A DNA stretch of 64,000 nt, taken from positions 218,628-282,627 of the forward strand of contig CAVYFW010000003.1 of assembly GCA_963767885.1 (NCBI GenBank), written 5' to 3'. Under the pieces are notes generated by a model that did not search any database, was not told where the DNA came from, and saw nothing but the letters and a program-made list of their open reading frames with translations. Position numbers and translations under genes: made by a program. The stretch comes from an uncultured Actinomycetota bacterium (lineage in GTDB: Bacteria > Actinomycetota > Thermoleophilia > Gaiellales > F1-60-MAGs149). Shown here in pieces: positions 1 to 53,077 of the stretch (position 1 is its first letter; every line of letters begins with the position of its first letter).

Positions 1-1110
1 TGGAGCTCGGCGTCTCCGGCTTCCGCGTCGACGCCGTCCCGTTCTTCCTGGAGACGGCCGGCGATCGCGGACGGCGACCGGACCTCGCCCGACCCGCACG
101 ACTACCTCCGCGAGCTGCGCGCGTTCCTCGGCCGCCGCAGCGGCGACGCCATCCTGCTCGGGCGAGGTCAACCTGCCGCACGCGGACCAGCGGCGCTTCT
201 TCGGCGGCGACGGACGGCGACGAGCTGACGATGCTGTTCGACTTCATCGGGATGCAGAAGCTGTACCTGTCGCTGGCCCGGCGGCGACGCCGCGCCCGCT
301 GGCCGAGGCCCTGCCGCCGCGGCCGCGGATCCCGCACGACGTCGCAGTGGGCGACGTTCGTGCGCAACCACGACGAGCTGACGCTCGACAAGCTCACCGA
401 CGACGGAGCGGCAGGAGGTGTTCGCCGCCTTCGGCCCGGACCCGGACATGCAGATCTACGGCCGCGGCCTGCGCCGCCGGCTGCCGCCGATGCTCGGACG
501 GCGACCCGCGCCGCATCCGGATGGTCTACAGCCTGCTGTTCTCGCTGCCCGGCACGCCGGTGCTGTTCTACGGCGAGGAGATCGGCATGGGCGAGAACCT
601 CGCCGCCGAGGGTCGCATGGCGGTGCGCACGCCGATGCAGTGGACGCCGGGCCGCAACGGCGGCTTCTCGACCGCGCCGCCGTCGCGCGCTGGCCGGCCC
701 GGTGACCGAGGGCGGGTTCGGCCCGGAGCACGTGAACGTCGAGGACGCAGCGGCGCGACCCCGACTCGCTGCTCTCCTTCGTGCACGCTGCTGGTCCGCC
801 GCTACCGCGAGTGCCCGGAGCTCGGCTGGGGCGAGCTTCGAGGTCCTCGACCAGCCGCACCCGGCGGTGCTCGCCCACCGCTCGCACGTGGGACGACGCG
901 TCGACGGTCGCCCTGCACAACCTGTCGGCCGAGCGCGGCGCACGTGCCGCTGCGGCTGGACGACTGCGACGAGGAGACGCGGCTGGTCGACCTGCTGGTG
1001 GACGGCATCACGCACGCTCGACGCGCGCGGCCGGGTCGAGATCGCCGCTCGACGGCTACGGCTACCGCTGGCTGCGGGTGGTGCCGGCGGGCAGCACGCT
1101 GCTGGCGTAG
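1..1110 (+). pseudogene. GH13 alpha-amylase-family enzyme, trehalose-synthase-like, 3' part (5' end outside window); frame broken roughly ten or more times
   Basis: Family motifs are scattered over all three + frames: GFRVDAVPFFLE (from nt 3), MLFDFIGMQKLYLSLA and FVRNHDELTLDKLTDD (ORF 231..), LFSLPGTPVLFYGEEIGMGEN..RTPMQWTPGRNGGFS (ORF 347..), FGPDPDMQIYGRGLRRRL (ORF 418..), LDGYGYRWLRVV then stop at 1108-1110 (ORF 781..1110). Confidence 0.8.
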
Positions 1111-1127
1111 CGCGGCGGGCCCTACGG

Positions 1128-1427
1128 CTAGCGGTGGTCATCGAGCACGATCTCGTGCCACGTCTCGGAGTGTCCGCCGGCCTCGGCGCCCTCGAGCGCC
1201 TCGCGGGTCTCCTGGAAGCCGGGGCTGTGGTGCCACGCCTCCCAGTCCTCACGGCGCTCCCACGTGCCGATGACGACCCGCTCGTCGCCGTCTTCGACGG
1301 GCGAGCCGAGCTGCACGGCGATCCAGCCGGGCTGGTCGCGAACGCTGGCGATGCGTCGGCGGAAGGCGGCGTCCCAGGCCTCCTCCTGCCCGGGCCGCAG
1401 GCGCACGCGGGTGACGACGGTCATCAT
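1128..1427 (-). CDS. Antibiotic-biosynthesis-monooxygenase (ABM/Dabb) domain protein, 99 aa
   Basis: Intact ORF. The sequence VTRVRLRPGQEEAWDAAF..WIAVQL..VVIGTWERREDWEAWHHSP is typical of the ABM fold. Confidence 0.75.
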   Translation of the reverse strand: MMTVVTRVRLRPGQEEAWDAAFRRRIASVRDQPGWIAVQLGSPVEDGDERVVIGTWERREDWEAWHHSPGFQETREALEGAEAGGHSETWHEIVLDDHR

Positions 1428-1498: not shown

Positions 1499-2150
1499 TC
1501 AGCTCCCGGCCCGCAGGTACGCCAGCACCGCCAGCACGCGGCGGTGGTCGTCGGTCGACTGCTCGAGCCCGAGCTTGCGGAAGATCTGCCCCACGTTCGC
1601 CTCGACGGTCTTCGGGCTCAGGTAGAGAGCGCGGCAGATCGCGGCGTTGCTGCGCCCCTCGGCGAGCAGGGCGAGCACCTCGCGCTCGCGCTCCGTGAGC
1701 TCGTCCAGCGGACCCGCCTGCCGCGCGCGCTTGCACGAGCCGCGAGACGATCGTCGGGTCGATCACGCACTCGCCCTCGTGGATGCGGCGCAGGGCGTCC
1801 GCGATCACCGCGACGTCCGACACGCGGTCCTTCAGCAGGTAGCCGACCCGCTCCGGCGCCTCCTCCAGCAGGCGCGTCGCGTAGCGCGACTCCAGGTACT
1901 GCGAGAGCACGAGCACGCCGACGGTCGGGTACGCGGCGCGGATCGCCTGTGCCGCCGCCAGGCCCTCGTCGGTGTGCGTCGGCGGCATCTTGATGTCGAC
2001 GATGGCGACATCCGGGCGGCGCAGCTCGACCCGCCGCAGCAGGCCCTCGGCGTCCTCGGCCGTTCCCACCACCTCGAAGCCCGCCTCGACGAGCAGACGG
2101 GCCAGGCCCTCGCGCACCAGCACCGAGTCGTCGGCGATCACGAGCCGCAC
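1499..2150 (-). pseudogene. NarL/LuxR-family response regulator (REC + LuxR HTH), one frameshift near 1725
   Basis: The receiver (VRLVIADDSVLVREG..PDVAIVDIKMP..VLVLSQY..YLLKD) is in the frame of ORF 1482..3857. The HTH (LTEREREVLALLAEGRSNAAICRALYLSPKTVEANVGQIFRKLGL..AYLRAGS, stop at 1499-1501) is in another frame. The GTG start at 2150 (or 2141) overlaps the kinase stop at 2138-2140. Confidence 0.85.
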
Positions 2151-3857
2151 GGGATCTCCGCGCGGATCGTGACGGCGCCGCCCGCCGCACGGGCCACCGC
2201 CAGCGACCCGTCGAGCGCCAGGATGCGATCCTCCAGGTCGAGCAGGCCGTCGGGCTCCGCGGCTGCCTCCACCTCGACGACCAGCACGCCGTCGCGCTGC
2301 GCGGCCGTCACCTTCGCCGGCCCGGCCCGCGACGCCGCCGCGACGACGAGGTACGCCGCCGTCTCGGCAGCCGGCGGGAAGCGGCCCTCCGGGGCGCCGA
2401 GGATGCGGAGCGGGGTCGACGCGCCCTCCGACAGCGACTCGAACGCCGCCGCCGCGCCCTCGTCGGTCAGCACCGCGGGGTGGATGCCGTGCGCGAGCTC
2501 GCGCAGCTCGTCGACCGCCAGGCGGAGCTCGGCCTCCGCCGCCGCGAGCCGCGCCACCGCCTCGGGGTCGGCGTCGCCGAGGCGCCCCCGCAGCAGCCGG
2601 AGGGCCAGCGCGAGCGAGACGAGCCGCTGCTGGGCGCCGTCGTGGAGGTCGCGCTCCAGGCGCCGGCGCTCGGCGTCGCCGGCCTCGACGATGCGCGCGC
2701 GCGACGAGCGCAGCTCCGCGAGCTGCGCGCGCGCCTGCGCCTGCAGCCGCTCGTGCTCCAGCGCCAGGCCCGCGGCCGCGGCCACGTCCTGGACGCGCTC
2801 GGCGCGATCGGCCAGGCCGGGGTCGTGGAGCAGGACGGCGACCGTGCGGCCGTCCCGGACGAACGGCGTCGCCACCCGGTCGGGCCGCGCGTCGAGCACG
2901 ACGGGGCTGCCATCGGCCGCCGCGAAGCGGCCGTCGCCGACGGGGTACGCGACCTCGATGTCGGGTTCGCCGAGCGCGTCCGCGAGCCCGCGTCGCAGCC
3001 CGCCGGCGGACGCGGGGCCGCCCAGCTGCACGACCAGGCCCGCGACGCGGCGGCGCGTGTGCCGCGACTCCAGCAGGCCCCAGCCGACCGCCAGGCCGAG
3101 CCCCGACAGGGCCGCTGCCTGGCCGAGCCACAGCCGGCGCTCCAGCTCGCCGTTGCCGACGAACGCCTGGTCGAGGTTGGCGGCGAACGTCCACGCGACC
3201 AGCGCGAGGTAGGCACAGCCAGTCAGGACCACGGGGCCGACGACCCGGCGCCGGCCGGGGCGCGAGCGCGCGAGCCGCCACGCGGCGACGCCGGCGAGCA
3301 GGACGGCCGAGGCGAGCCCGAGCCACATCCCCGGCCCGGCCCAGCCGGTCGACGAGGTCCGCGTCGCCGTGCACCAGCAGCAGGTTGTCGGGGCACTGGC
3401 TGCACCCCTGAGCGGCCGGGTCGTACGCCAGCGCGGGCAGCACGCCGAGCACGAGCAGCCCGGTCGCGAGCGCCACGGCGACGGCCGCCCGCTCGAGCGG
3501 TGCGTGCAGCCTGCCGTCCGGGTACGCCAGCAGCGCCCAGCCGGCGAGCGCGGGGCACACGGCGCCGAGCGCGAGCCCGATCGTGAACACGACCGGCGAC
3601 CCGACTCCCGGGTTGTCCCACTCGGCGACGAACCAGGCGGCGCCGGTGAGCGCGAGCAGCGGCCCGACGGCGTTGCCGGGACGGCGCAGCGCGAACGCCG
3701 CGCCGCTCGCGATCAGGGCCCAGCCGGCGACGCAGAGCGCGAGGGAGGCGGCGAACGACCCACCCGCCGGCGAGTACGCGGGCGTCGCGCGGGCGACCGC
3801 GAGCGAGTACCCACCGAGCACGAGCCCGACCGCCGCGAGCGGGATCGTCAGCCGCAT
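2138..3857 (-). pseudogene. Membrane sensor histidine kinase, HisKA_3 family (HK1): H-box present, HATPase motifs degenerate; one frameshift near 3330-3350
   Basis: The N-terminal multi-pass sensor (MRLTIPLAAVGLVLGG.. from ATG 3857) is in the frame of ORF 1482..3857. The cytoplasmic part is ORF 2138..3328 with H-box ERDLHDGAQQRL. The C-terminal domain lacks the N, G1 and G2 boxes (YLVVAAASRAGPAKV..VEVEAAAEPDGLLDLEDRI). Confidence 0.85.
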
Positions 3858-3907
3858 GTGGCCATCGTCTCATACGGCACGCGTCCCGCCGCGGTGCTGC
3901 CCTTGCA

Positions 3908-3925
3908 CCGGACCAGGGCTAGCCC
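3908..3925. promoter_or_regulatory. Shared 18-nt motif CCGGACCAGGGCTAGCCC (palindromic core GGGCTAGCCC) in the HK1 / DctP-like divergent intergenic region
   Basis: Its reverse complement matches 17 of 18 nt with 7928..7945, upstream of the second two-component module. A second shared 10-mer, TGTGGAGCCG, lies at 3961..3970 (its complement is at 7918..7927). Confidence 0.35.
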
Positions 3926-4016
3926 CATGCTTGGCGGCAGCTGTCGAGGGGGCGCCCCGATGTGGAGCCGGAGCACCGGGCCTAGCGTCGAGGCGACCCA
4001 CGACAGGAGGTGCCCG

Positions 4017-5901
4017 ATGCAGTCCAGAAGCGTTCTCCGTCTCGCGGCGGCGACGGTCATGACCAGCCTCGTCCTCAGCTCGGCCGGCTGCGGCGACGCC
4101 ACGAGCGGGAGCGGCGACAAGGCCGGCGGCGAGGATCCGGCGCAGCCGCGCGTCCTCACGCTGGCCAGCCAGACCGGCATCCCAACGCAGATCGAGGCGT
4201 TCGCGAGGGAGGTCCAGAAGCGCTCCAACGGAACCCTCACGATCCGCTTCGAGGACGGCTGGCGCCACGGCGAGAACGGCTACGAGCAGGCCGTGCTCGA
4301 CGACCTCAAGGCAGGCAAGGTCGATCTGGCGTGGGTCGGCGCGCGCGCGTTCGACATGGTCGGCGCCGACGACTTCCAGGCACTGCTCGCCCCGCTCCTC
4401 GTCGATAGCTACGACCTCGAGGGGCGTGTCTTCGCCGCCGGCATCCCCGCGCGGATGCTGGCGGGCGTCGACGTCCCCGGCGTCGTCGGGCTCGGCGTGC
4501 TGCCCGGCCCGATGCGCAAGGTGCTCGGCGTCTCCGAACCGGTCGTAGGCCCCGACGACTTCGCGGGCCGGGTCGTCGGCCTCTCGGACGGCGGCGTGGC
4601 GCGGCAGACGCTGGAAGCGCTCGGTGCGACACCGAGGCCGCTGCCGGCGGAGGCGAAGCTCGACGGGCTCGACGCGTTCGAGCAGCAGATCTCGTCGATC
4701 GCCGGCAACTCGTACGACCAGGGCGCCACCGCGGTCACCGCCAACCTCAACATGTGGCCGCGTCCGCTCGTGCTCGTGACCGGCAAGGATCTGCTCGCGT
4801 CGCTCTCGCCGGACGCAGCAGGCCGCGCTCCGCGACGCGGGCGCGGCGACCGTGGACGAGGCGCTCGCGCTCACGAAGGCCGACGAGGCCGAGTCGGCTG
4901 CGATCCTCTGTCGGCGCGGGCTCACCTTCGCGACGGCGTCGGCCGGTGACCTCGCGGCGCTGCGCACCGCGGTCGAGCCGGTGTACGCGAGCCTCTCGGC
5001 CGACCCGGCGACGAAGGCCTACCTGGACGAGATCGCTGCGCTGAAGCAGCAGGTCGCCGCAGGCGCCGACGCGTCCCCGTGCGACGCCTCGTCCTCGACG
5101 GCGGCCGCGGCGACGATCCCGGACGGCCGCGACTCGTCGAAGGACGCGACGATCGACGGCGTCTACCGCACGACCATCAGCCGCGAGGAGCTCGAGTCGA
5201 CGCCCCTGCTGCTCGCCGCCGACGAGGTCAACGACATGAACTGGGGCGACATGACCTTGACGCTCGCCGACGGGCGCGCGACCTGGGAGCAGGCGAACGA
5301 CCTCGCGCACTTCTCGACCTCGGGCACCTACGAGGTCGACGGCGATGCGATCAGGCTCGCGTTCAGCGAGGGCGAGGTGGCCGGCGAGCAGTTCGCCGCC
5401 CACTGGAGCCTGTACCACGACACGCTCACGTTCACCCGCGACGACGAGCTCGGCGTCCTCCCAACGCCGTTCCTGCTGGAGCCGTGGCAGCGCAGCGACG
5501 CGCTGGCGGACGACTCGGACGCCGCGGTCGCCGCGCCAACGCCGATCGACGGCACGTGGGAGTACACGACGACCAAGGCGGACTTCCCCGACGAGCCGAA
5601 CATCGACGAGGAGAACTACGGCTTCTACCGCTTCGTGCTGGACGGCGGCCACTTCGAGATGACGCAGAAGAACGGCCCGTCCGACCGCTGGACGCGGGGC
5701 AGCTACACGGTCACCGGCGACACCGTCGAGTTCGAGGTCGAGGACTACGGCGGCGACGCGCCCAACGGCGCGATCGAGAAGACCGGCGAGCTCTTCGCGT
5801 TCGCGTGGAGCCTCTACCGCGACACGCTCACGATGGGGCCGGTGCCGGGCGCCATCTCGCCCGAGAACTTCACGGCGAAGCCGTGGACTCGGGTCGAGTA
5901 G
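4017..5901 (+). pseudogene. Lipoprotein: TRAP-type (DctP-like) solute-binding domain fused to a tandemly duplicated C-terminal domain; one frameshift near 4812
   Basis: RBS ACAGGAGG precedes ATG 4017, and there is a lipobox LVLSSAGC. The DctP-like body (LTIRFEDGW..LKAGKVDLAWVGARAF..GLGVLPGPMRK..FAGRVVGL) is in ORF 3369..4949 and continues in ORF 4852..5901. The C-terminal region has two similar modules ending WSLYHDTLTF and WSLYRDTLTM. Confidence 0.75.
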
Positions 5902-5948
5902 CCGCGGCCGCGTGGTAGCACGGTAGGGGGCGGCCGGCGCGCCGCCCC

Positions 5949-7530
5949 CTACGGCTGCCCGGACGCCGGGATGCGCGCCTCGAGCTCGGTGCCGCCCGCC
6001 CCGGCGGCACGCACGGCGAGGCGGCCGCCCAGCGCCTCGACCCGGTCGGCGAGCCCCCGCAGCCCCGAGCCCGACGGGTCGGCGCCGCCCCGGCCGTCGT
6101 CCGTGACGGTCACGACCACGTCGCCGTCGACCACCTCCACGAGCACGCTCGCGCGGGTCGCGCCGGCGTGCTTGGCGACGTTCGCGAGCGCCTCCGAGCA
6201 GACGAAGTACGCGGCGGCCTCCACCGCGGGCGTCTGGCGTTCGACGGCGACGTCGAGCTGGACGGGCACCGCGGATCGCGCGGCCAGCTCGGGCAGCGCC
6301 GCGGCCAGCCCGCCGTCGGCCAGCGCGCGCGGCCGGATGCCCTGCGCGAAGTCGCGCAGCTCCCCGCGGGCGCCGCGCAGCTCGTCCTCGACGGCCGCGA
6401 ACAGCGGATCCGAGGGGCCGTCCACCCCCTCGTGGGCCGTTGCGACGAGCTCCTCCACGCGGGCCAGGCGCCGCTCCGCGCCGTTGCGGAGCTCGCGCTC
6501 GATGCGCCGCCGCTGGGCATCGCCGGCCTCGACGATGCGGCGGCGCGAGGCGGCGAGCTCGAGCACGCGCTCGCGCACGTCCGCCTGCAGCCGCGCGTTG
6601 GAGAGCGCGAGCCGCGCCGCGGCGGCGACCGACTCGATCAGCGCCGGGTCGGCCAGGACCGCCTCGTCGTGGACCAGCACCGCGATCGGCACGCCGTCCT
6701 CGGCGAGCCGGGTGACGGCCCGGCCGGCGCCCGGCTCGGGGATCTCGACCGGGCGCCCGGCATCGTCGACGTACCGCTCCTCGCCGGGCAGGCGGTAGCC
6801 GACGACGAGCGAGCGATCGCCGAGCGCGCGGCCCAGCTCGTCCTGCAGGGTGCGCGTGTCGGAGCGCTTGCCGAGGTCGATGACGAGGCCGGCGACCACC
6901 GCCTCCGACCACCGCCCGCGCAGCAGGTCGACGCAGAGCACGACGGCCAGCGCCGGCGATGACGGCGTCGTACGTCCACAGCACGCCGCGGTCGGCGCCC
7001 CAGCCCGCGAGGCGGTCGACGGCGCCCAGCGCCAGCACCCCCGCGTACGCGAGGGCCGCTGCCAGCGCGGGCACGCCCGCCCGGCGCGCGGGTCCCGACG
7101 CGCGTGCGTACCCCTCGATCGCGGCGGCGGCGACCAGTGCGGCGAGCGCGAGCGTCAGCGCGTCGTCGCGGGCGAACGGCTCGACGATCGCATCGACGTA
7201 CGCGAGCACCACGGTGGCGAGGGCCAGGCGGCGCAGCAGGCGCCCGGTCGGGTACGAGATGTGCACGTGGACGAGCGGCCCGCGGTGCAGGTAGAGCGCC
7301 GCGGGCCAGAAGTTGCCCGCGAACCAGGTGAAGCCGGCGAGCGCCATCAGCGCGCCGATGCGGCTCTCGGGCCGTCGCTGCCACGCGACGACGCCGCAGG
7401 TCACCAGCACGCAGCCCACGACGCCGTCGGCGATGAGCAGCGGGAGGTCGCCGCCGTGGTACGACCTCCACTCGGCCGCGACGGCGACCGCGACGGCCAG
7501 CGGCACGAGCGCGAGTCGCAGCGCGCGCAC
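5949..7530 (-). pseudogene. Membrane sensor kinase paralogue, HisKA_3 family (HK2): intact HATPase motifs but H-box His-Asp replaced by Arg-Asn; one frameshift near 6942-6960
   Basis: The N-terminal membrane part starts at ATG 7530 (MRALRLALVPLAVAV.., ORF 4747..7530). The cytoplasmic part is ORF 5949..6941. The H-box position reads ERELRNGAERRL. N box SEALANVAKHA, G1 TDDGRGG and G2 GSGLRGLADR are all present. Confidence 0.85.
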
Positions 7531-7533
7531 GCG

Positions 7534-7890
7534 CTACCGGGGGGCGAGCGCGGCGAGCGCGGCCCCGCTGAGCTCGCTCTTGGGGATGAAGCCCCGCGCG
7601 AGGCTGCGCTGCAGCCGCCGGCGGTAGGACGCCGGGTCGCGGCTCGACGTCAGCACCACCGAGGGCCCGCCGGCGCCGCCGGTGAGCGCGTCGCACACGG
7701 CGAAGCCGTCCATGTCGGGGAGGGCGACGTCGAGCAGCACGAGCTCCGGCCCCAGCCGCGCCGCCTCGGCGATCGCGGACGCGCCGTCGTGCGCTTCGCC
7801 GACGACCTCGAATCCCTCGGCCTCGAGCAGCGCACGGGCGAAGGACCGGAACCCGGCGTGGTCGTCGACGATCAGGACGGTCGCCGCCAC
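7534..7890 (-). CDS. Stand-alone receiver (CheY-like) response regulator, 118 aa
   Basis: GTG start at 7890. Receiver signature: VLIVDDH, LVLLDVALPDMDG, VVLTSS, FIPK. No output domain. It ends 4 nt before the HK2 start. Confidence 0.85.
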   Translation of the reverse strand: MAATVLIVDDHAGFRSFARALLEAEGFEVVGEAHDGASAIAEAARLGPELVLLDVALPDMDGFAVCDALTGGAGGPSVVLTSSRDPASYRRRLQRSLARGFIPKSELSGAALAALAPR

Positions 7891-8838: not shown

Positions 8839-11800
8839 ATGCGCCTGGCTGCTCTCACCACCGCCCTGCTCGCGTCGCTCCTCGCCCTCGCCGGCACGGC
8901 GGGCGCGGCCACGTTCACCGTGAACTCCACCGGGACGGCCGACGACGCAGCGCCCGGCAACGGCGAGTGCCGCACCGCCGGCGGCGTCTGCACGCTGCGC
9001 GCGGCGGTGCGCGAGGCCGACGCGGGCGCCGGCAGCGACCGCGTGGTCGTCCCGGCCGGCACGTACACGCTGGCCGCGGGGCTGCAGGTGCACTTCCCGC
9101 TCATCCTCGAGGGCGCGGGCGCGAGCTCGACCGCGATCGACGGCGCCGGGGAGATCGTCCTGCGCCTGCTCGAGGGCGCGACGACGGTGCGGGGCGTGAC
9201 GGTGCGCGGGGGCGAGGCCCAGGGCGGCGCCGGGCTGCTCGTGGAGAGCGGCGCGACGCTGACGCTGGAGGACGCCGTCGTGACCGGCAACGACGCGTTC
9301 ACGGGCGGAGGCGGGATCTACGTCCAGGCCGGCGGCGCGGCCACGATCCGCCGCACGTCGATCAGCGGCAACCACGCCACGGGCGCGTTCGGCGGCGGCA
9401 TCTGGAACCAGGGCGAGCTCGACCTCGTCGACAGCGTGGTCGCCGACAACGAGGCCAACCGTGCCGGCGGCATCCGCAACGAGGGCGAGATGCGGCTGCG
9501 CAACGTCACCGTCAGCACCAACCGCGCGCTCTCCGACGAGGCCGGCGTCGGCGGCATCTCGCAGAACGGCTTCGCGTTCCTGAACAACGTCACGATCACC
9601 CTCAACCACGGCCGCGGCGACGTCGCGGCGTCCTTCCGCGGCGGCGGCCTCCAGACGTCGACCGGCGAGCTCACGGTGCTCCAGAACTCGGTCGTCGCGG
9701 GCAACGACGGCCACGGCGGGCCGGCGGACTGCGTCGGCCCCCTCAGCTCCGACAGCCGCTACGACCTGATCGGCGTCACCACCGCCTGCGGCCTGCCGGC
9801 CGTGACGACGACGTGGAAGCTCGGGGTCGACGCCCGGCTCGGGCCGCTCGCGAACAACGGCTCGTCCCTCCGGGGCCACCTGCCGCAGGCGACGAGCCCG
9901 CTCGTCAACGCGGGCGCGCCGTACACGCCCGGCGGTCCGGCGGCGGGCGCCTGCGAGGGCCGCGACCAGCGCGGCATCGTGCGCCTGCGCTGCGACATCG
10001 GCGCGCTCGAGCGCGAGGTGCCGGTGCCGGCGACCATCACCGTCACCTCGACGGTCGACCAGCCCGACGCGGTGCCCGGCGACGGTGACCTGCGCCACGG
10101 CCGGCGGCGCCTGCACGCTGCGGGCGGCGGTCCAGGAGGCCAACCGGCTGCCCGGCGCGCAGAACGTGGCGATCCCGACCGGCGGGTACGTCCTGTCCCT
10201 CGTCGGGTCCGAGGCCGGCCTCGACGCGGACGCCGCGGGCGACCTCGACGTGCGCGGCGAGCTCTCGCTGACCGGCGCGGGCGCGGCGGCGAGCGTCGTC
10301 GACGGCAACGCGCTCGGCCGCATCCTCGACGTCGAGGTCGGAGCCAGCCTGCGCGTCCAGGGCCTGACGCTGCACAACGGCCGCGATGCGGGCGGCGGCG
10401 CGATCCGCGCCACGAGCGCGCAGGTCACGCTCGAGCAGACGGTGCTGTCCGGCAACGTCGCCACCGGGCCGGGCGGCGCGGTGCTGATGAGCGGCCTGGA
10501 CGAGGTGCTGGTCGTGCTGGAGTCGACGTTCGAGGGCAACCGGACGACGGGCCTCGGCGGCAACGGCGGCGCGATCTCGGCCGGCGGCGACGTGACCGTC
10601 ACCGCGTCCGTCCTCGCCGCCAACCAGGCGGCAGGGTCCGGCGGCGCGCTCGCGGTCACCGGCAGCCTCCTGCTGGAGCGCTCGGCCGTGCGCGACAACC
10701 GCGCCGAGGGCGGCGTGCTCGGCAACGGCGGCGGCGTCAGCGCGACCCAGGCCGCGATCGCGGGCTCCACGCTCTCGGGCAACACCGCGTCCGCGCACGG
10801 CGGCGGCGCCTTCGTGGGCAGCGGCACGCTCGACGACTCGACCGTCTCGGGCAACGGGAGCGCCGACCGCGGCGGCGGCGTCTCGACGAACGGCACGCTC
10901 GCCCTGCGCCACGTCACGCTCGCCGGCAACACCGCGAGCGCAGGCGGCGCCGACCTCTTCGTCTTCGGCTCCGGCGCGTCGCTCTCGCTCGCCGACAGCA
11001 TCCTCGGCAGCGCTGGCGGCGCTGGCTGCGCGGGCGCGGCACCGGCGAGCGCGGGCGGCAACGTCGCCCTCGACGGCAGCTGCGCCCTGGCCGGTCCGAA
11101 CGACCGCCCGGGCGTCGACCCGCTGCTCGGCCCGCTGGCGGACAACGGCGGCGCCACCCTCACCCACCTGCCGCAGGCCGGCAGCCCGGCGATCGACAAC
11201 GGCCTCCAGCCGACGCCGGCGACCGACCAGCGCGGCGCGGCGCGCCCGCAGGGCCCGGCTGCCGACAGCGGCGCCGTGGAGGGCATCGTGGCCATCATGG
11301 GCACGCCGACCGGCGCGCCGACGGCGCTCCTGATCGGCGCCGACGCCGGGGCCACGGGCGCGGACGCCCGCGCGCTGGCCACCCTCCGCGCGCTCGGCCT
11401 GGAGGCGACCGGCATCGAGCCTGCCGCGGCCGCGACGGTCTCGCTGCAGGGCCTGCGCCTGATCGTCGTCTCGCGGACCGCGAAGCTGACGCCGGCGGTC
11501 GCCCGGCGCCTGGCCCGCGCCGGCGTCGGCATCGCGACGTGGTCGCCCGCGGCCGCCCGCCAGCTCGGCCTGGTGCGGGCGCGCGGCACGGCCGGGCTCG
11601 CACGCGGCCGCGCGCTGCGCATCACGGCCCGCGGCGTCGGGCTGCTCGGCGCGCGCGGCCGCGTGCAGCTCGTCGCGGCCAGCAAGCCCCGCATGGTCCT
11701 CGCCCGTCTGACGCCGGTCGCGACCGGTCGCGTGCAGGCGCGCGTCAACGTCCCCGGCCGGCCGGCGGCGCTCGTCACCTTCGGCAAGCGCGTCCGCCTC

Positions 11801-11920
11801 GCGGGCGGGCTGAAGGTGAACGCCCGCCGCGCGGCCCTCCCCTACGGCCCGGGCGGCGCGACGACCGCGCTGGGCCGCCAGCTCGTCGAGCGGGCGCTGA
11901 CGTGGGCGGCGGCGGGGTGA
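8839..11920 (+). pseudogene. Large secreted right-handed beta-helix protein with two CSLREA / choice-of-anchor-Q-like modules and a distinct C-terminal domain; one frameshift near 10083
   Basis: Signal peptide MRLAALTTALLASLLALAGTAGA. Module 1 has GNGECRTAGGVCTLRAAVREA..DQRGIVRLRCDIGALE (ORF 8839..). Module 2 has TCATAGGACTLRAAVQEAN..DQRGAARPQGPAADSGAVEG (ORF 10085..11920). There are many G-rich beta-helix turns. An extra g after GGCGACGGT breaks the frame. Confidence 0.8.
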
Positions 11921-40349: not shown

Positions 40350-42048
40350 CTACGCCGAGGGCTCGACGCCGTAGATGCGACGCGCGGCCTCGGGCGAGAC
40401 GTGGCGATCTGCGAGATCCTCGTGCACGAGCCCTGGGTCGCGCTCGGCCGGATCGCCGAAGCCGCCGCCGCCGCCCGTCATCGTGCGGATCACGTCGCCG
40501 CGCCGGAGCGGCATCGTGCTGCACTTGAGCAGCCGTCGCTCGTCGTCGCGACCCGGGTTGACGACGACGATGGGCGGGGTCGCGTCCTGGCCGCCGAAGA
40601 GGCCCCAGGCGGGCGTCCGCGAGCGCTCGAACCAGAGCGACATGACCGCGGCCTCGCCGTCGAGCGTGTACTCGCGGACGACGCCGTTGCCGCCGCGCCA
40701 CTGCCCGGGCCCGCCGGAGTCGGGGCGGAAGCCGTAGTGGGTCATCCGCAGCGGGTACTTCGTCTCCAGCACCTCGATCGGCGAGGTCCTTGAGCGAGCC
40801 GTTGACGTTGTTGATCAGCCCGTCCTGCGCCGTCGGAGCCGTTCCACGCGCCCCAGCCGCCGACGGTCGGCTCGAGGTCGAAGCCACGGCTGGCCGTTGC
40901 GGTGGTCGATGCCCGAGCAGCACGATCACCATCGAGTCGCCGTAGCTCGCGCCGGCCGCCTGCTCGGGCAGCACGTCGGACGAGCGCCTTGACGACGAGG
41001 TCGATCAGCAGGCCGAGCTGCGTGAAGTACCACTGGCACGGCGCGGGCGGCTGGGCGGCGAGCATCGAGCCGGGCCGCACGCGCACCGTGCAGCGGGCGG
41101 AACGCGCCGCCGTTCGGCGGGTTGTCGGGGTTGATCAGGAGCTTGTAGGCGACGCGACAGGCGCGAGATCGCCTGCGCCTCGCCGCAGTTGACCGGGCCC
41201 GGCTGCGGCGTCGTCGGTCTCGGAGAGGTCGATCGTCATCTCGTCGCCGCGCGATCTCGACGGAGAGCCGCACCCAGCACGGCTCGGCCGAGTCGACGCC
41301 GTCGTCGTCCAGGCATCCCTTCGGCGTGGTAGACGCCGTCGGGGATCGCCGCGACGGCCGCCCGCTCGAGGCGCTCCGTCTGCGCGAAGATCTCGTCCCG
41401 CGCCGCGGCGATCGTCTCGGTGCCGTACCGGTCGATGATCGCCGCGCAGGCGCTTCTGCCCGGTGCGCGCGCACGCGATCTGCGCGCCGAGGTCGCCGAT
41501 CGCCGGATAGGAGAAGCGGCTGTTGCGGCCGAGCAGGTCGGTCACGTCCCGGCGCTGGATCGCCTCCCTCGACGACCTTGGTCGGACCGAGCCGGATGCC
41601 CTCCTGGAAGATGCTCGTCGAGTCCATCGGCCCGCCCGGGTCCTTCGCGCCGACGTCGAGCCAGTGCGCGCGGCGACGCGGCGAAGCCGACCAGCTCGTC
41701 GTCGTGGAAGATCGGCCCGAAGACCGTCATGTCGTTGAGGTGCGTGCCGGTCAGGTACGAGTCGTTCATGATCCAGACGTCGCCGGGACGCCACGCCTCG
41801 CGGCCGTACATCTCCTCCGTCAGGCGCGTGCAGATCTCGAGGTTGCCGAGGAAGATCGGCAGGCCCGCCGACTGCCCGAGGACGCGGTGGTCGGCGTCGA
41901 GCAGCGCGACCGAGCAGTCCTTCATCTCGTAGATGACCGGCGTGTAGGCCGAGCGGATCAGCGTCGCGTTCATCTCGTCCGCGGCCGCCGTGAACGCGCT
42001 GCGGATGATCTCGGTCGTGATCGGGTCGACCGCGTTCGTGGCAGCCAT
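40350..42048 (-). pseudogene. hyuB: Hydantoinase B / oxoprolinase family subunit, copy 1; frame broken about ten or more times
   Basis: Co-linear with intact copy 3 but spread over ORFs 41542..42048, 41135..42517, 40926..41627, 40742..41086 and 40350..40772. The first 125 aa are near-identical in pattern (MAATNAVDPITTEIIRSAF..GPIFHDDELVGFAAS). Confidence 0.85.
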
Positions 42049-44124
42049 CAGGCGTCCTCTCCGGTCGCTGATGACGAGCGAGCCGAACGGCGTCGACGCG
42101 CAGGCGTGCGCCGGGCGGGACGACCGTCGTCGCGGTCGTGCTCCGTCGATGATCGCCGGGCCCGTCGAGCACCGCGCCCGGCGCGAGGTCGTCGCGGTGC
42201 ACGATCGTCGTCGGCAGCGCCTGCGCGGTCGAAGACGACCTCCCGCGTACCGCTGCCGGTAGCGTCGTGCGCGTCGACTCCGTGCTGCCGCGCCGGGTCG
42301 GCGCGGCCGAGGTCGCCGAGCGCCGTCGTGCGGACGACGACGAGCTCGACCGGCGCGCCGGGGTTGGCGTGGCCGAAGCGCGTGCTCGTGCGCCTCGTGG
42401 AAGCGGTCGGCGAGCTGCGTCGTCGAAGTCCTCCTCGAGCGGCTCGTCGGCGCCGAGCAGCGGGATCGTCAGGGTGTACTCCTGACCGACGTAGCGGATG
42501 TCGAGCGCATGCTCCACGCGGCCGGTGTCGCGGCGCGATGCCCTCCTCCTCGAGCGAGGCGTCGAAGCCTCCGCCTCGAGCTCGCGCGAGCGTCGCGGCG
42601 AGGTCGGCGTGATCGAGCGCCGCGAGCGGAGTGAAGTAGGCGCGCGCCGAGGTCCTTGCGGATCTCGGTCTCCAGCATCCCCCAGGCGGAGAACGCGCCG
42701 GGGAAGCGGCGGGACGATCGACCTCGCGCGATCTCGAGCTCCCGGGCGAGGAAGACGGCGTGCATCGGCCCGGCGCCGCCGAAGGCGACGAGCGCGAAGT
42801 CGCGCGGCTCGATGCCCTTCTCGACGGTCAGCGTGCGGATCGCCTGCGCCATCTTCGCGTTGATGACGTCGCAGATGCCCTCGGCCAGCTCGATCGGTCT
42901 CGAGGCCGAGCTCGTCGCCGAGCGCCGGCGAGCGCCTGCTCGGCCGCGTCGACGTCGAGCGTCATCTGGCCGCCGGCGAAGTACGGCCGGGTCGATGCGG
43001 CCGAGCGACGAGGTTCGCGTCGGTGACGGTCGGCCGTCGTGCCGCCGCGGCCGTAGCAGGCGGGGCCGGGGTCGGCGCCGGCGCTCTCCGGCCCGACGCG
43101 CAGGCCGCCCGCCTCGGCGTAGGCGAGCGAGCCGCCGCCGGCGCCGATCGTGTGGATGTTGACGACCGACATCAGGAGCGGGAAGCCCTCGAGCGTCGTC
43201 TCGGACGACGACGTCGGGCTTGCCGTCGACGACCAGGCTGACGTCGAAGCTCGTGCCGCCCATGTCGATGCAGATCAGGTTCGGCCGGTCGAGCATGCGC
43301 GCCAGCGCGACGCCGCCCATCGTCCCGCCGACCGGCCCGGAGAGCAGGGTCTGCAGCGAGCAGCTCGCGCGCCGACTGCGGCCGTGACGATGCCGCCGCA
43401 CGACTGCATCACGTGCAGCGGCACGGACAGCCCGCGGCGCTGCAGCTCGCTCTCGAGCCGCTCGAGGTAGCGGCGCACGACCGGCGCGGTGTAGGCGTCG
43501 ATGACCGCCGACGAGGTGCGCTCGTACTCGCGCCACTCGCGCGCGACGCGGTGCGAGAGGGAGACGGTGATCGCCGTCGAGCTCCTCGAGCAGGATCTCC
43601 TCGGCGCGCAGCTCGTGCGCCGGGTTGACGTAGGAGAACAGGAAGCGCGACGGCGACGGCGCCGAAGCCCTCCTCCCGCGCGCGCCGCGCCGCGGCGCGG
43701 ACGGCGTCCTCGTCCAGCGGCTCGAGCTCCTCGCCCGCCCAGTTCGAGCCGGCCGCCGATCTCGACGATGTCGCTGCGCGGGCACGAGCGGCGTCGGCTT
43801 GCGGTAGTGGATGTCGTAGAGGCGCAGTGCGGTTGCCGCGGGCGATGTGGTAGACGTCGCCGGCGCCGCGCGTCGCCAGCAGCAGCACCGCTCGCCGCGG
43901 CGCTGGAGGAAGGCGTTCAGGCCCTGCGTCGTGCCGTGCACCGTGAACGCCGATCTCGGCGGGCGTGTCGACGACGGCGCCGAGCGCCGCGAAGACGCCC
44001 TCGGTGAGGTCGCTTCGGCGTCGTCGACGACTTGCCCGCGCGGTACGTCCCGCTGCTCCTCGTCGTAGGCGACGACGTCCGTGAACGTGCCGCCGATGTC
44101 CATCGAGACCCGGTAGCGGCTCAT
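42048..44124 (-). pseudogene. hyuA: Hydantoinase A / oxoprolinase family subunit, copy 1; frame broken about a dozen times
   Basis: MSRYRVSMDIGGTFTDVV at ATG 44124. In-frame islands (FTVHGTTQGLNAFLQRRGER, FLFSYVNPAHELRAEEIL, LQTLLSGPVGGTMG..IDMGGTSFDVSLVVDG, AKMAQAIRTLTVEKGIEPRDFALVAFGGAGPMH) alternate with off-frame stretches of ORF 42469..44283. The stop overlaps the hyuB start (TGATG). Confidence 0.85.
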
Positions 44125-46754: not shown

Positions 46755-48477
46755 CGGCGGGCGGTGAACGTCTCGGGGCTCACGGTGACGCCGTACTGCT
46801 CGAGCGCCTCCTCGACCGTCACGTAGCCGTTGCGCACGTCGTCGGCGACGGCCTCGGGGTCGCGCTCGTGCGGATCGCCGTAGCCGCCGCCCGTGGCCGT
46901 GACGATGCGCACGAGGTCGCCGGCGCCGAGCGGGTGCCGCGCGACCTTCCCGAAGCGCTGCTCGGAGCCGTCCGCCGTGATCACGTCGACGTGGTTCGTC
47001 GAGCCGTTCTGCGCCGCCGTGCAGGCCCCACGCGGGAAACGCGTGGCGGCCGGCGGTCGAGGTGACGATCCAGCCGTCGCGCAGGATGCGGTACTCGCGG
47101 ATGCAGCCCGGGACCGCCGCGCTGCCGGCCCGCGCCGGCGCCGATCGGGTCGAGGCCGAAGCGCTCGACGCGCAGGCCGAAGCGTGCCTCGGCGACCTCC
47201 GCCTGCGTCACGAACGTCTCGCCGTCGAGGCAGCAGAACTGGCCGACGACGCCGTCGCGCCGACGGGTTCGCGCCCCAGCCGCCGACCTCCGGCTCGACG
47301 AGCACGACGAAGTCGCCGGTGTCGGCGTGCGGGCCGGCGACGATCGTGCCGCAGACCGACGCCATGTGGCCCGCGCCGCAGCCGGTCCGGGCAGGTGCGG
47401 CGCCATCGCCCGCCAGATCAGCTCCGCGCCGAAGGTCAGCGACTCCCAGTAGATCGAGCAGGGCGCGGGCCGCTCGGCGGAGAGGATCGATCCCGGCGGG
47501 CAGATCACCCGCAGCGGCGCGAAGGAGCCGTGGTTCGCCGCCGCGCTCGGCGTTCGTCAGCGCCTTGAACGCCACCTGCGCGGCGGAGAGCAGGCCGGTC
47601 GAGGTGTTGTTCACGGGCCCGGCGACCTGCGGGTGCGAGCCGCGTGAAGTCGCAGATGAACTCGTCGTCGGTGATCGTGACCTTCACCCGCACCTCGAAC
47701 GGGCCGTCTGCCGAGGCCGTCGTCGTCGATGTAGTCGACCGCGTCGAACGTCGCCCTTCGGCAGCTTCGCCAGCTCGAGCCGCGCGATCGTCTCGCCGTG
47801 CTCGATCAGCGCCTCGATCGTCTCGAGCACCGACGTCGACGCCGTACTTGTCGCAGACCTCGCGGAACGCGCGCTCGCCGACGCGCATCGCCGCCGCCTG
47901 CGCCATCAGGTCGCCGATCGTCTGCTCGGGCGTGCGCACGTTCGACGCGATCAGGTCGACGAGCGCCTCGTTCCGCTCGCCGCGGCTCCAGATCTTGACG
48001 TTCGGGAACTGGAGCCCCTCCTGGTAGATCTCGGTGGAGTCGGTCGTGAAGGAGCCGGGCGACATGCCGCCGACCTCGGTCCAGTGCGCCTTCGACACCG
48101 CGAACGCGAGCGAGCTGGCCGTCGACGAAGATCGGCGCGACGAGCGACACGTCCGAGAGGTGCGAGCCGCCGCCGATGTACGGGTCGTTCGTGATCACGA
48201 TGTCGCCGGGCTCGAGCCGGCCCTCCCACTTCGTCCAGCACGGCCTCGACGCTCGTCGTCAGCATGCCGATGAAGCCGGTCACGCCCTGGCCCTGCGTGA
48301 CCAGCCGCGCCGCTCGCGTCGGTCAGCCCGGTCGCGAAGTCGAGCACCTCGTAGATGATCGGGCTCATCGAGGTGCGCAGCAGCGTCGACGAACATCTCG
48401 TCGCCGACGGCGGCGAGGCGCGTCCTTGATGACCTCGATCGTGAACGGGTCGCCGCGTCGTCTTGCTCGGTCTGCAT
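46751..48477 (-). pseudogene. hyuB: Hydantoinase B / oxoprolinase family subunit, copy 2 (a subfamily divergent from copies 1 and 3); many frameshifts
   Basis: Fragments: MQTEQDDAA..LAAVGDEMFV (ATG 48477), ITNDPYIGGGSHLSDVSLVAPIFVDG (ORF 47806..48198), EIYQEGLQFPNVKIW (ORF 47505..), VVLVEPEVGGWGA and IVTATGGGYGDPHERDPEAVADDVRNGYVT (ORF 46751..47614). Confidence 0.8.
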
Positions 48478-50559: not shown

Positions 50560-50562
50560 CGC

Positions 50563-53072: not shown

Positions 53073-53077
53073 CTGCG

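What the first reader, a model, noticed from the sequence alone, without database searches (positions are those of the whole stretch)
2138..7530. Two paralogous HisKA_3 sensor kinases with complementary catalytic defects
HK1 (2138..3857) keeps a canonical H-box (ERDLHDGAQQRL). The stretch that should carry the HATPase_c N, G1 and G2 boxes instead reads YLVVAAASRAGPAKV..VEVEAAAEPDG..LLDLEDRILALDG. There is no N-box Asn, no DxGxG and no GxGLxG. I translated the other two frames of that stretch and they hide no such motifs.

HK2 (5949..7530) is the mirror image. It has N box SEALANVAKHA, G1 TDDGRGG and G2 GSGLRGLADR, but its H-box reads ERELRNGAERRL (CGC AAC where CAC GAC is expected). So the phospho-acceptor His-Asp is Arg-Asn.

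The two proteins are otherwise co-linear: a multi-pass N-terminal sensor, a central domain, then DHp and CA. HK1 is followed by a NarL/LuxR regulator. HK2 is preceded by a stand-alone receiver.

My inference is that they form an obligate hetero-pair in which the ATP-binding domain of HK2 phosphorylates the His of HK1 in trans. Alternatively, HK2 is a pseudokinase or modulator of the HK1 pathway. I know of no characterised split of this kind in the NarX/DesK-type family.
Basis: partly seen in the sequence, partly recalled or inferred. Interest (0 to 1): 0.75.

Follow-up and report, generated by a model that had tools for sequence, protein, structure and literature searches.

The report
Split sensor kinase in two genes
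Two neighbouring sensor-kinase genes each lack a different essential catalytic part, and because this pairing is kept across many Actinomycetota they most likely work together as one kinase, a rare arrangement not yet described for this kinase family.

Summary
On the minus strand, HK1 (3857..2138) has a canonical HisKA_3 H-box but no N, G1 or G2 box. HK2 (7530..5949) has all three ATP-binding boxes but Arg-Asn where His-Asp should be.

The whole window is indel-rich, so these look like assembly errors. Intact orthologues are 570 and 527 aa.

Both defects are evolutionarily fixed:
- All 116 HK1 orthologues keep LHDGAQQRL and a conserved, lid-less pseudo-ATPase domain.
- All 107 HK2-family sequences keep Asn, DxGxG and GxGLxG, while the His column drifts (R 89, H 11, S 5, N 1, G 1).

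The genes form a conserved five-gene module: receiver-HK2, a DctP-like binding lipoprotein, then HK1-NarL regulator. HK1 was present in all 26 HK2 loci long enough to tell, and HK2 in all 6 loci reached from HK1. The two kinase trees mirror each other. Canonical relatives sit in receiver-HK-NarL operons, which suggests duplication followed by complementary loss.

Best reading (about 0.55): one heteromeric kinase in which the HK2 ATPase phosphorylates the HK1 His in trans. Precedents exist in other families (FasBC, CheA3/CheA4), so this is a new variant of a known kind.

The parts
1499..2150 (-). RR1, a NarL/LuxR-type response regulator (receiver plus GerE-type HTH). It starts 13 nt inside the end of HK1. 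One frameshift at about 1715-1731 puts the HTH in another frame.
   Evidence: Response_reg hit, E 2e-15. The HTH sequence ...LDELTEREREVLALLAEGRSNAAI...KTVEANV... is in a second frame. The intact orthologue in L001 is 221 aa with Response_reg and GerE. The acceptor Asp, Ser and Lys are conserved in 20 orthologues.
2138..3857 (-). HK1: a multi-pass membrane sensor, a small central domain, a HisKA_3 DHp domain with the phospho-acceptor His, and a degenerate ATPase-like domain. One extra G in the run at 3329-3332 breaks the frame.
   Evidence: Orthologues are about 570 aa and carry only PF07730.
2621..2656 (-). HK1 H-box ERDLHDGAQQRL, with His codon CAC at 2642-2644 and the DxxxQ phosphatase motif intact.
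   Evidence: Invariant in 116 orthologues: mean column identity is 1.00 from H to H+7.
2141..2413 (-). HK1 pseudo-CA domain. It keeps the alpha/beta sandwich but has no N-box Asn, no DxGxG, no GxGLxG and no ATP lid. It is acid-rich where G1 and G2 would be.
   Evidence: No HATPase_c hit. The AF2 model gives pLDDT 82-91 with a b-a-b-b-a-b-b order, and DesKC DHp+CA chains dominate the top Foldseek PDB matches (ranks 2-14; rank 1 is the engineered LOV-histidine kinase 4gcz_B). Mean column identity is 0.73 across 116 orthologues. Used alone as a query it finds 444 clusters, and 40 of 42 full-length ones have LHDG without an N box or G2.
4017..5901 (+). DctP-family solute-binding lipoprotein (signal peptide ...LVLSSAGC) with a C-terminal extension. 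It is divergent from HK1 and convergent with HK2. It has a frameshift at about 4814-4850.
   Evidence: PF03480 DctP, E 3e-14, with a weak Lipocalin_4 hit in the C-terminal part; frames. It lies between the two operons in nearly all related loci. No DctQ or DctM gene appears in the annotated related loci.
5949..7530 (-). HK2: the same architecture as HK1, with an intact CA domain but Arg-Asn in place of the H-box His-Asp. One extra base at about 6953-6954 breaks the frame.
   Evidence: Orthologues are about 527 aa and carry only PF02518. P0121 is 95% identical and intact.
6465..6500 (-). Degenerate H-box of HK2, ERELRNGAERRL (Arg CGC at 6486-6488, Asn AAC at 6483-6485).
   Evidence: The His column in 107 sequences is R 89, H 11, S 5, N 1, G 1. 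The H+1 column is E 56, A 17, D 16, Q 5, N 3. Mean identity of the two columns is 0.51.
6042..6197 (-). ATP-binding motifs of HK2: N box at 6165-6197, G1 at 6084-6104, G2 at 6042-6071.
   Evidence: N-box Asn, the G1 D..G.G residues and the G2 G.GL.G residues are each present in 107 of 107 sequences.
7534..7890 (-). RR2, a stand-alone receiver domain of 118 aa. Its stop codon lies 3 nt before the HK2 start.
   Evidence: Response_reg hit, E 8e-17. The acceptor residues DD, D, T/S and K are conserved in 40 orthologues.

Best explanation
The five genes RR2-HK2, the DctP-like lipoprotein gene and HK1-RR1 encode one signalling system, in which HK1 and HK2 together form a single functional histidine kinase.

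Proposed mechanism:
- HK2 supplies the only ATP-binding catalytic domain.
- HK1 supplies the only phospho-acceptor His, the intact phosphatase motif and the conserved regulator-docking surface.
- The most likely geometry is a DHp heterodimer. The HK2 CA domain phosphorylates the HK1 His in trans. The reciprocal half-site is dead on both counts, because it pairs the HK1 pseudo-CA with the HK2 Arg. The dimer is therefore permanently asymmetric, with one active site.
- HK1~P then passes phosphate to the NarL-type RR1, and probably also to the single-domain RR2.
- The lipoprotein most likely delivers an extracellular ligand signal to one or both membrane sensors.

Proposed origin: a receiver-HK-NarL operon in which the kinase gene was duplicated. 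The ATP lid was lost in one copy first. The now redundant His was then lost in the other copy.

Shown here: the motif states, their conservation, the gene linkage and the co-divergence. Inferred: the physical heterodimer, the direction of phosphoryl transfer, and the roles of RR2 and the binding protein.
For: 1. The complementary motif states are confirmed.
2. They are fixed across orthologues. HK1 keeps LHDGAQQRL and a degenerate CA domain in 116 of 116 close orthologues, in all related loci, and in 40 of 42 distant full-length cluster representatives. HK2 keeps the N, G1 and G2 residues in 107 of 107.
3. The pseudo-CA domain is under purifying selection. Its mean column identity is 0.73, against 0.69 for the real CA of HK2. 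It still models as a CA-like fold matching DesKC.
4. In HK2 the relaxed regions are the acceptor columns (0.51) and the alpha1 stretch after them (0.46, against 0.74 in HK1). Its dimerisation helices stay conserved at 0.87 and 0.74.
5. Linkage is tight. All 26 HK2 loci with enough flank contain HK1. The other 25 contigs end within 816 nt of the last HK2 or DctP feature. All 6 loci reached from the HK1 side contain HK2.
6. The genes are shuffled but kept together. L133 has HK1-RR1-RR2-HK2 in one operon. Streptomyces L006 has DctP-RR2-HK2-RR1 opposite HK1. L113 has RR2-HK2-RR1.
7. Each paralogue clade has 100/100 bootstrap support, and the two clades have mirrored branching order.
8. Canonical relatives lie in receiver-HK-NarL operons. 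The module therefore looks like one ancestral system with its kinase split in two.
9. There is a graded series. Basal pairs L010 and L022 have an HK1 that lost the lid but keeps a G1 remnant, and an HK2 that still has HD. L019 and the crown group have lost His.
10. A published precedent works this way: FasB supplies the kinase domain and FasC supplies His246 in a heterodimer (PMC12675982).
Against: - No biochemical or interaction data exist for this system. AlphaFold-Multimer was not available.
- His is present in about 10% of close HK2 orthologues and in two basal lineages, so HK2 may autophosphorylate in some organisms.
- Whether this DHp phosphorylates in trans is unknown. Directionality depends on loop handedness, and it is reported as uncertain for NarX and NarQ (PMC8199190). 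A cis-acting fold would make the heterodimer model fail.
- RR2 is encoded with HK2, not HK1, which could point to a distinct HK2-RR2 function.
- In the window itself both genes are frameshifted, so pseudogenisation in this particular genome cannot be formally excluded.
Confidence: 0.55

Rival explanations
1. This is a split kinase without a stable heterodimer. HK1 and HK2 each form homodimers, and the HK2 CA domain phosphorylates the HK1 His in transient encounters. This would resemble CheA3/CheA4 or the reported M. tuberculosis Rv0600c/Rv0601c pair.
For: It rests on the same complementarity and linkage evidence as the main model. CheA3 and CheA4 work through transient complexes (PMC3591291). 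Both proteins keep full DHp helices that could homodimerise.
Against: Both proteins are membrane-anchored with paralogous DHp domains, and the trees are tightly mirrored, which fits a stable complex more easily. A homodimer of HK2 would carry two conserved ATPase domains facing non-phosphorylatable Arg residues.
Confidence: 0.15
2. HK2 is a DivL-like pseudokinase that does not donate phosphate to HK1. It reads the phosphorylation state of the single-domain receiver RR2, or binds ATP as a signal, and allosterically modulates HK1 or another kinase. HK1 acts mainly as a phosphatase or phosphotransferase for RR1.
For: HK2 lacks the His and is co-transcribed with a stand-alone receiver, as in the DivL-DivK pairing (PMC4211667, listed). 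HK1 keeps the HisKA_3 phosphatase motif DxxxQ.
Against: The ATP-binding residues of HK2 are invariant in 107 of 107 sequences, which argues for catalysis rather than a mere scaffold. The HK2 surface that would dock a receiver (alpha1 after the H-box) is its least conserved part, at 0.46. HK1 would then have no source of phosphate, yet its His is invariant.
Confidence: 0.12
3. These are two independent pathways that merely share a locus. HK2 uses another acceptor residue or another substrate with RR2. HK1 is phosphorylated by an unrelated kinase or by a small-molecule donor and signals to RR1.
For: The genes lie in two separate operons in most loci. About 10% of HK2 orthologues have a His at the canonical column.
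Against: No alternative conserved His exists in the HK2 DHp: the GIHP His of the consensus is Arg in the window. Linkage survives gene-order rearrangements, including single-operon forms. The trees are mirrored. The ancestral form is a single receiver-HK-NarL operon.
Confidence: 0.08
4. This is an artefact or decaying pseudogenes. The missing motifs result from sequencing errors or from gene decay in this genome.
For: The window is full of frameshifts. Four of the five cluster genes have one.
Against: The motif states are shared by more than 100 independent assemblies for each gene, with intact ORFs of 570 and 527 aa. No motifs are hidden in other frames. A relative 95% identical to HK2 is intact and also carries Arg.
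Confidence: 0.02

Closest known systems
FasB/FasC/FasA three-component system of group A Streptococcus (PMC12675982)
   Same: It has two paralogous membrane sensor-kinase-like proteins encoded side by side. They heterodimerise rather than homodimerise. One (FasB) provides the needed kinase domain. The other (FasC) provides the needed His and the sensing membrane part, and its kinase domain is dispensable. One DNA-binding regulator is the output.
   Different: It belongs to a different kinase family (a six-TM kinase with a ComE-like regulator) and a different phylum (Firmicutes). In Fas, both proteins still carry both domains by sequence, and FasB still has a His (H284), so the division of labour was found by mutagenesis. 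Here it is written into the sequences. Fas has no associated binding protein and no second receiver.
CheA3/CheA4 split kinase of Rhodobacter sphaeroides (PMC3591291)
   Same: Neither protein autophosphorylates alone. The ATP-binding protein phosphorylates the His-carrying protein, which is also the phosphatase. Modelling predicts ultrasensitive behaviour.
   Different: It is a CheA-class kinase with a separate Hpt-type P1 domain, it is cytoplasmic, and whole domains are absent rather than degenerate. The His is not in a DHp dimerisation domain, so no DHp heterodimer is involved.
Rv0600c (HK1) / Rv0601c (HK2) / TcrA of Mycobacterium tuberculosis
   Same: This is an actinobacterial system with two sensor-kinase genes and one regulator (PMC3544749). 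From my own knowledge (Shrivastava et al.), one protein carries the ATP-binding domain and the other the His-containing domain. That detail was not checked here.
   Different: As I recall, the two are short complementary fragments of one kinase, not two full-length paralogues each keeping a degenerate copy of the missing part, and the regulator is of OmpR type. There is no binding protein and no second receiver.
DivL pseudokinase of Caulobacter (PMC4211667)
   Same: It is a histidine-kinase fold with the phospho-acceptor His replaced. It is associated with a single-domain receiver and acts through another kinase.
   Different: DivL modulates CckA allosterically and does not need catalysis. Here the ATP-binding residues of HK2 are invariant, and the partner lacks its own ATPase.
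AbrC1/AbrC2/AbrC3 of Streptomyces coelicolor (PMC4428217)
   Same: This is an actinobacterial system with two kinases and one regulator.
   Different: Both AbrC kinases autophosphorylate on their own in vitro, so they have no complementary defects.
Canonical HisKA_3 kinases (DesK, NarX/NarQ) and the single-gene relatives in L004, L005, L008, L009, L011, L018 and L028
   Same: They share the DHp family, and DesKC is the best-matching family among solved structures. The single-gene relatives share the N-terminal sensor and central domain, and they sit in receiver-HK-NarL operons.
   Different: Each canonical protein has both the His and a complete N/G1/G2 ATPase domain in one chain.

Membership tests
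HisKA_3 sensor histidine kinase (complete, autophosphorylating): HK1 | DHp domain with the H-box His followed by an acidic residue, and the DxxxQ motif | tested here: met
   PF07730 hit, E 3e-12. LHDGAQQRL is invariant in 116 orthologues.
HisKA_3 sensor histidine kinase (complete, autophosphorylating): HK1 | HATPase_c domain with N-box Asn, G1 DxGxG and G2 GxGLxG | tested here: not met
   No PF02518 hit. The motifs are absent in all three frames and in all orthologues. The fold is retained without the lid.
HisKA_3 sensor histidine kinase (complete, autophosphorylating): HK2 | HATPase_c domain with N, G1 and G2 boxes | tested here: met
   PF02518 hit, E 4e-7. The catalytic residues are present in 107 of 107 sequences.
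HisKA_3 sensor histidine kinase (complete, autophosphorylating): HK2 | Phospho-acceptor His in the H-box | tested here: not met
   The window has Arg-Asn (CGC AAC). There is no PF07730 hit. The column is R 89, H 11, S 5, N 1, G 1.
Split or heteromeric histidine kinase (FasBC, CheA3/CheA4 type) | Neither partner has the full catalytic set, and the missing parts are complementary | tested here: met
Split or heteromeric histidine kinase (FasBC, CheA3/CheA4 type) | The partners are genetically linked and co-inherited | tested here: met
   26 of 26 informative HK2 loci and 6 of 6 HK1-side loci hold both genes. The two clades have mirrored topology and 100/100 support.
Split or heteromeric histidine kinase (FasBC, CheA3/CheA4 type) | ATP-dependent phosphorylation of the His partner only when both proteins are present | not testable with these tools
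   This needs in vitro [gamma-32P]ATP assays.
Split or heteromeric histidine kinase (FasBC, CheA3/CheA4 type) | Physical interaction or heterodimerisation of the two proteins | not testable with these tools
   No multimer prediction or interaction assay was available. Only monomer AF2 was run.
DivL-type pseudokinase: HK2 | Catalytic ATPase activity is dispensable, so ATP-binding motifs are free to degenerate | tested here: not met
   The N, G1 and G2 residues are invariant in 107 of 107 sequences.
TRAP transporter solute-binding protein (DctP): gene at 4017..5901 | Match to the DctP family 7 binding-protein domain, plus an export or lipoprotein signal | tested here: met
   PF03480 hit, E 3e-14 in the window and 2e-23 in L001. 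The N-terminus is ...LVLSSAGC.
TRAP transporter solute-binding protein (DctP): gene at 4017..5901 | Adjacent DctQ/DctM membrane transporter genes | tested here: not met
   No DctQ or DctM family appears in the gene tables of L001 and L130-L133, which cover about 2-8 kb of flank around the module. The window itself was not scanned for them.

The most novel reading that the evidence does not exclude
A widespread class of obligately heteromeric HisKA_3 sensor kinases exists in Actinomycetota, apparently undescribed (two targeted full-text searches found no report). It spans Acidimicrobiia, Thermoleophilia and some Streptomyces, and comprises hundreds of 50%-identity clusters.

In this reading the DHp dimer is hard-wired to be asymmetric. 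One half-site is live (HK2 ATPase acting on the HK1 His). The other has been turned into a permanent non-catalytic clamp, in which the acid-rich HK1 pseudo-ATPase sits against the Arg that replaced the HK2 His.

Two different membrane sensors would then feed one phosphorylation site. The HK1 sensor carries a conserved CxxC loop. The HK2 sensor carries a conserved His-rich HRGPLVHLHISYP motif. A DctP-like ligand-binding lipoprotein would add a further input. The graded series of relatives would record the order of complementary loss after gene duplication.
Probability: 0.4. Interest if true: 0.75.

Novelty: new variant of a known kind. Interest (0 to 1): 0.6.

Why it matters
Histidine kinases are normally homodimers, and each chain carries both the acceptor His and the ATPase. 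Structural work suggests that only one of the two active sites fires at a time, but this asymmetry is hard to study in a symmetric homodimer. A natural pair in which both defects fall on the same half-site would be a ready-made asymmetric kinase.

Such a pair would help in several ways:
- It would test directly whether HisKA_3 kinases phosphorylate in trans.
- It would show how a dead ATPase domain is kept for a non-catalytic role.
- It would show how two different membrane sensors and a binding protein converge on one phosphorylation site.

The relatives also give a clear evolutionary series: canonical single kinase, then lid-less copy with an intact partner, then fully complementary pair. 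This illustrates how duplication and complementary loss lock two genes into mutual dependence.

There is also a practical point for annotation. Hundreds of proteins now labelled 'sensor histidine kinase' cannot work alone.

Tried and rejected
It returned mostly ordinary HisKA_3 kinases at 35-50% identity, not the 60-67% orthologues. It was still useful for four distant pairs (L006, L010, L019, L022) and for the canonical outgroups.
- The look-up of encoding contigs found no record for the window's own protein P0001. It returned no DNA for the 95%-identical P0121. The source organism of the window was therefore not identified. The listing of cluster members added little taxonomy.
- HK1 and HK2 as exclusive sister clades got only 13/100 support, so I do not claim they are each other's closest paralogues.
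- Literature searches for direct evidence that DesK or HisKA_3 kinases autophosphorylate in trans gave only general statements about loop handedness. The trans requirement remains an assumption of the model.
- Rfam and tRNA scans of the window found nothing.
- I considered a linker-fused HK1-HK2 AlphaFold run and dropped it.
- I considered pseudogenes or sequencing artefacts as the cause of the motif defects and rejected this.
- I looked for an alternative acceptor His in HK2 and rejected the idea. The only other conserved DHp His (in GIHP) is Arg in the window.

Full report
**What is in the window**

The region has about 75-80% G+C. On the minus strand it encodes, in order of transcription:
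- RR2, a 118-aa stand-alone receiver (7890..7534);
- HK2 (7530..5949);
- then, after an intervening plus-strand gene, HK1 (3857..2138);
- RR1, a NarL/LuxR-type regulator (2150..1499) that overlaps the HK1 stop codon.

Between the two operons, on the plus strand, lies a DctP-family solute-binding lipoprotein gene (4017..5901). It is divergent from HK1 and convergent with HK2.

**Check of the observation**

Pfam finds HisKA_3 but no HATPase_c in HK1, and HATPase_c but no HisKA_3 in HK2. NCBIfam matches show the same split. HK1 aligns to kinase models only through the DHp domain. HK2 aligns through to the C-terminus. The other two frames of the HK1 C-terminus hide no ATP-binding motifs.

HK1 and HK2 are co-linear paralogues, at 37% identity over about 400 residues.

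Neither kinase is a continuous ORF in the window.
- HK1 switches frame in a GGGG run at 3329-3332.
- HK2 has one extra base at about 6953-6954. This is shown by comparison with P0121, an intact 526-aa protein that is 95% identical.
- RR1 and the binding-protein gene each have a frameshift too.

A GC3-based frame plot of all 64 kb shows dozens of same-strand frame switches without stop codons. In 41-54 kb they come every 100-300 nt. The assembly is therefore indel-rich, and the frameshifts are most likely errors rather than biology. I treat the genes as intact for interpretation and flag that this needs polishing data.

**Are the defects real and conserved?**

Yes. The HK1 query returned 119 clusters at 58-67% identity, nearly all about 570 aa, with HisKA_3 as the only Pfam domain. 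The HK2 query returned 120 clusters, mostly about 527 aa, with HATPase_c and usually no HisKA_3.

In 116 full-length HK1 orthologues:
- the H-box LHDGAQQRL is invariant;
- the C-terminal domain is uniformly degenerate, with consensus ...ETAAYLVVAEAAKAG...VDVEAEAEPEGLVDLEDRVGALDGRL...IRAEIPCG;
- there is no N-box Asn, no DxGxG and no GxGLxG, and the domain is about 16 residues shorter than the HK2 CA domain.

This domain is nonetheless conserved. Its mean column identity is 0.73, against 0.69 for the real CA of HK2. An AlphaFold2 model gives it pLDDT 82-91, with the strand-helix order of a CA sandwich lacking the ATP lid. DesK DHp+CA chains fill ranks 2-14 of the Foldseek PDB matches, aligned over about 220 columns; rank 1 is an engineered LOV-histidine kinase.

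Searching 1.8 billion cluster representatives with this 100-residue domain alone found 444 clusters at E <= 0.001. Of 42 full-length hits, 40 combine an LHDG or VHDG H-box with no N box and no G2 box. HK1-type proteins therefore form a large family.

In 107 HK2-family sequences:
- the N-box Asn, the G1 Asp/Gly residues and the G2 Gly/Leu residues are present in 107 of 107;
- the His column reads R 89, H 11, S 5, N 1, G 1;
- the next column is equally variable.

The two acceptor columns (0.51) and the following alpha1 stretch (0.46) are the least conserved parts of the HK2 DHp. In canonical kinases that stretch contacts the regulator, and the equivalent HK1 value is 0.74. The coiled-coil and alpha2 helices stay conserved.

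**Linkage**

An Acidimicrobiales MAG contig (L001) has exactly the window's layout, with intact genes: receiver (118 aa)-HK2 (527 aa), DctP (479 aa, opposite strand), HK1 (572 aa)-GerE regulator (221 aa).

A metagenome scan seeded with the HK2-specific central domain returned 46 loci. Together with the genome loci, this gives 51 loci that hold an HK2-type gene. Of these, 26 also hold an HK1-type gene. In the other 25, the contig ends within 816 nt of the last HK2 or DctP feature, so there is no counter-example. Some of the 26 are near-duplicates, so the number of independent cases is closer to 20.

Starting from HK1, all six loci examined contain HK2: L001, L003 and L130-L133.

Gene order varies while the set stays together:
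- one to three DctP genes may lie between the operons;
- L115 and L127 have no DctP gene between them;
- L133 has HK1-RR1-RR2-HK2 as one operon;
- Streptomyces sp. NPDC001536 (L006) has DctP-RR2-HK2-RR1 opposite a lone HK1;
- L113 has RR2-HK2-RR1.

Genes outside the five are not conserved. Both regulators keep their acceptor residues.

**Evolution**

In a neighbour-joining tree, all HK1-type and all HK2-type sequences form two clades. Each has 100/100 bootstrap support, and the internal order is the same in both: L010/L019/L022 are basal, then L115/L117/L121, then L006/L113, then the core group. The pair has therefore been inherited as a unit across Acidimicrobiia, Thermoleophilia/Gaiellaceae and some Actinomycetes, going by the names.

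The nearest single-gene relatives have both the His and complete N, G1 and G2 boxes. In at least seven genomes they sit in a receiver-HK-NarL three-gene operon. A canonical module of this kind lies next to the split one in L121.

The split module thus looks like that ancestral operon with its kinase duplicated and partitioned.

The basal pairs are intermediates. In L010 and L022, HK1 has lost the lid, G2 and the N-box Asn but keeps an 'EDDG' G1 remnant, and HK2 still reads LHDG. L019 and the crown group have lost the His: Arg in most, Ala in L006 and Thr in L113. Loss of the ATP site in HK1 is therefore older and universal. Loss of the His in HK2 came later and happened more than once, and that column now drifts.

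**Mechanism**

The simplest account is that the two proteins make one kinase. HK2 binds ATP, and HK1 carries the His, the phosphatase motif and the regulator-docking surface.

If the DHp domains heterodimerise and phosphorylation is in trans, both defects fall on the same half-site (HK1 pseudo-CA facing the HK2 Arg). The other half-site (HK2 CA facing the HK1 His) is then fully intact. If phosphorylation were in cis, both sites would be dead. The model therefore predicts trans handedness, which I could not verify. Reviews say only that handedness decides cis or trans, and that NarX and NarQ are unclear.

The rest of the mechanism is inference:
- The regions of the HK1 pseudo-CA that replace G1 and G2 are strongly acidic, and HK2 prefers Arg at the old His position. 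This suggests the dead half-site may have become a fixed clamp.
- RR1 is the likely transcriptional output.
- RR2 may be a second acceptor or phosphate sink inherited from the ancestral operon.
- The orphan DctP-like lipoprotein probably acts as a ligand-binding co-sensor. No DctQ or DctM genes appear in the annotated related loci.

**Comparison with known systems**

Division of labour between two kinase-like proteins is known.
- FasB/FasC of group A Streptococcus heterodimerise. The FasB kinase domain and FasC His246 are the required parts (PMC12675982).
- CheA3/CheA4 of R. sphaeroides phosphorylate only together (PMC3591291).
- M. tuberculosis Rv0600c/Rv0601c/TcrA has two kinase genes and one regulator (PMC3544749). 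The split of functions between them is from my own memory.
- DivL is a His-less pseudokinase paired with a single-domain receiver (PMC4211667).
- In contrast, the two Streptomyces AbrC kinases each autophosphorylate alone (PMC4428217).

In two targeted full-text searches for such systems, out of eight searches run in all, I found no description of a HisKA_3 pair with sequence-level complementary degeneration, of the pseudo-CA family, or of the five-gene module with a DctP-like protein. I therefore rate this as a new variant of a known kind.

**Verdict**

Interest is 0.6. The system is a clean and widespread natural case that would make kinase asymmetry and trans-phosphorylation directly testable, but it has functional precedents elsewhere.

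Noticed in passing
window 1-64000, especially 41300-43760, 47000-48230 and 49145-53900: A GC3 frame-plot shows dozens of same-strand reading-frame switches with no stop codon, every 100-300 nt in these stretches. The assembly looks indel-rich, as if from long reads without polishing. Any ORF-based reading of this window needs frameshift correction.
   Followed up: partly
window 8839-11920 (+): This is a large secreted protein with beta-helix-like repeats. It has two copies of a Cys-containing motif (...GECRTAGGVCTLRAAVREA... and ...TCATAGGACTLRAAVQEAN...). It is also broken by a frameshift near 10085-10117.
   Followed up: no
window 231-1273 (+): Fragments of an alpha-amylase or trehalose-synthase-like gene (FVRNHDELTLDKL..., ...LPGTPVLFYGEEIGMGENL...) are spread over at least two frames.
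   Followed up: no
HK1 N-terminal sensor (window about 3380-3420, minus strand) and HK2 N-terminal sensor (window about 7215-7290, minus strand): The two membrane sensors carry different conserved motifs. HK1 orthologues keep a Cys pair (GCxQCPxNLL). HK2 orthologues keep a His-rich stretch (LYLHRGPLVHLHISYPTGRL). Both share a YP(S/T)GRL element. This hints at different inputs, possibly redox or metal. No Pfam family covers this domain.
   Followed up: partly
L121 17639-20354 and L122 17723-19596: A canonical receiver-HK-NarL module, with His and complete N, G1 and G2 boxes, lies directly downstream of the split module on the same contig. The ancestral-type and derived systems therefore coexist in one genome.
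   Followed up: partly
L133 1162-7199; L006 5150-11101; L113 2-2051: These loci show rearranged versions of the module. L133 has HK1-RR1-RR2-HK2 as a single operon. In a cultured Streptomyces (L006) the NarL regulator has moved behind HK2. L113 has RR2-HK2-RR1. Streptomyces sp. NPDC001536 is a culturable host for experiments.
   Followed up: partly
window 4852-5898 (+); L001 5767-7206: The DctP-like protein has a C-terminal extension of variable length: about 627 aa in total in the window, 479 aa in L001, and 594-598 aa in L130 and L131. The extension contains repeated WSLY(R/H)DTLTF-like elements and gives a weak Lipocalin_4 hit. Some loci carry two or three tandem DctP-like genes.
   Followed up: no
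window 1128-1427 (-): A small ORF of 99 aa lies immediately downstream of RR1. By eye it resembles an antibiotic-biosynthesis-monooxygenase-like protein (...WEAWHHSPGFQETREAL...). It is not conserved next to the module in other loci.
   Followed up: no
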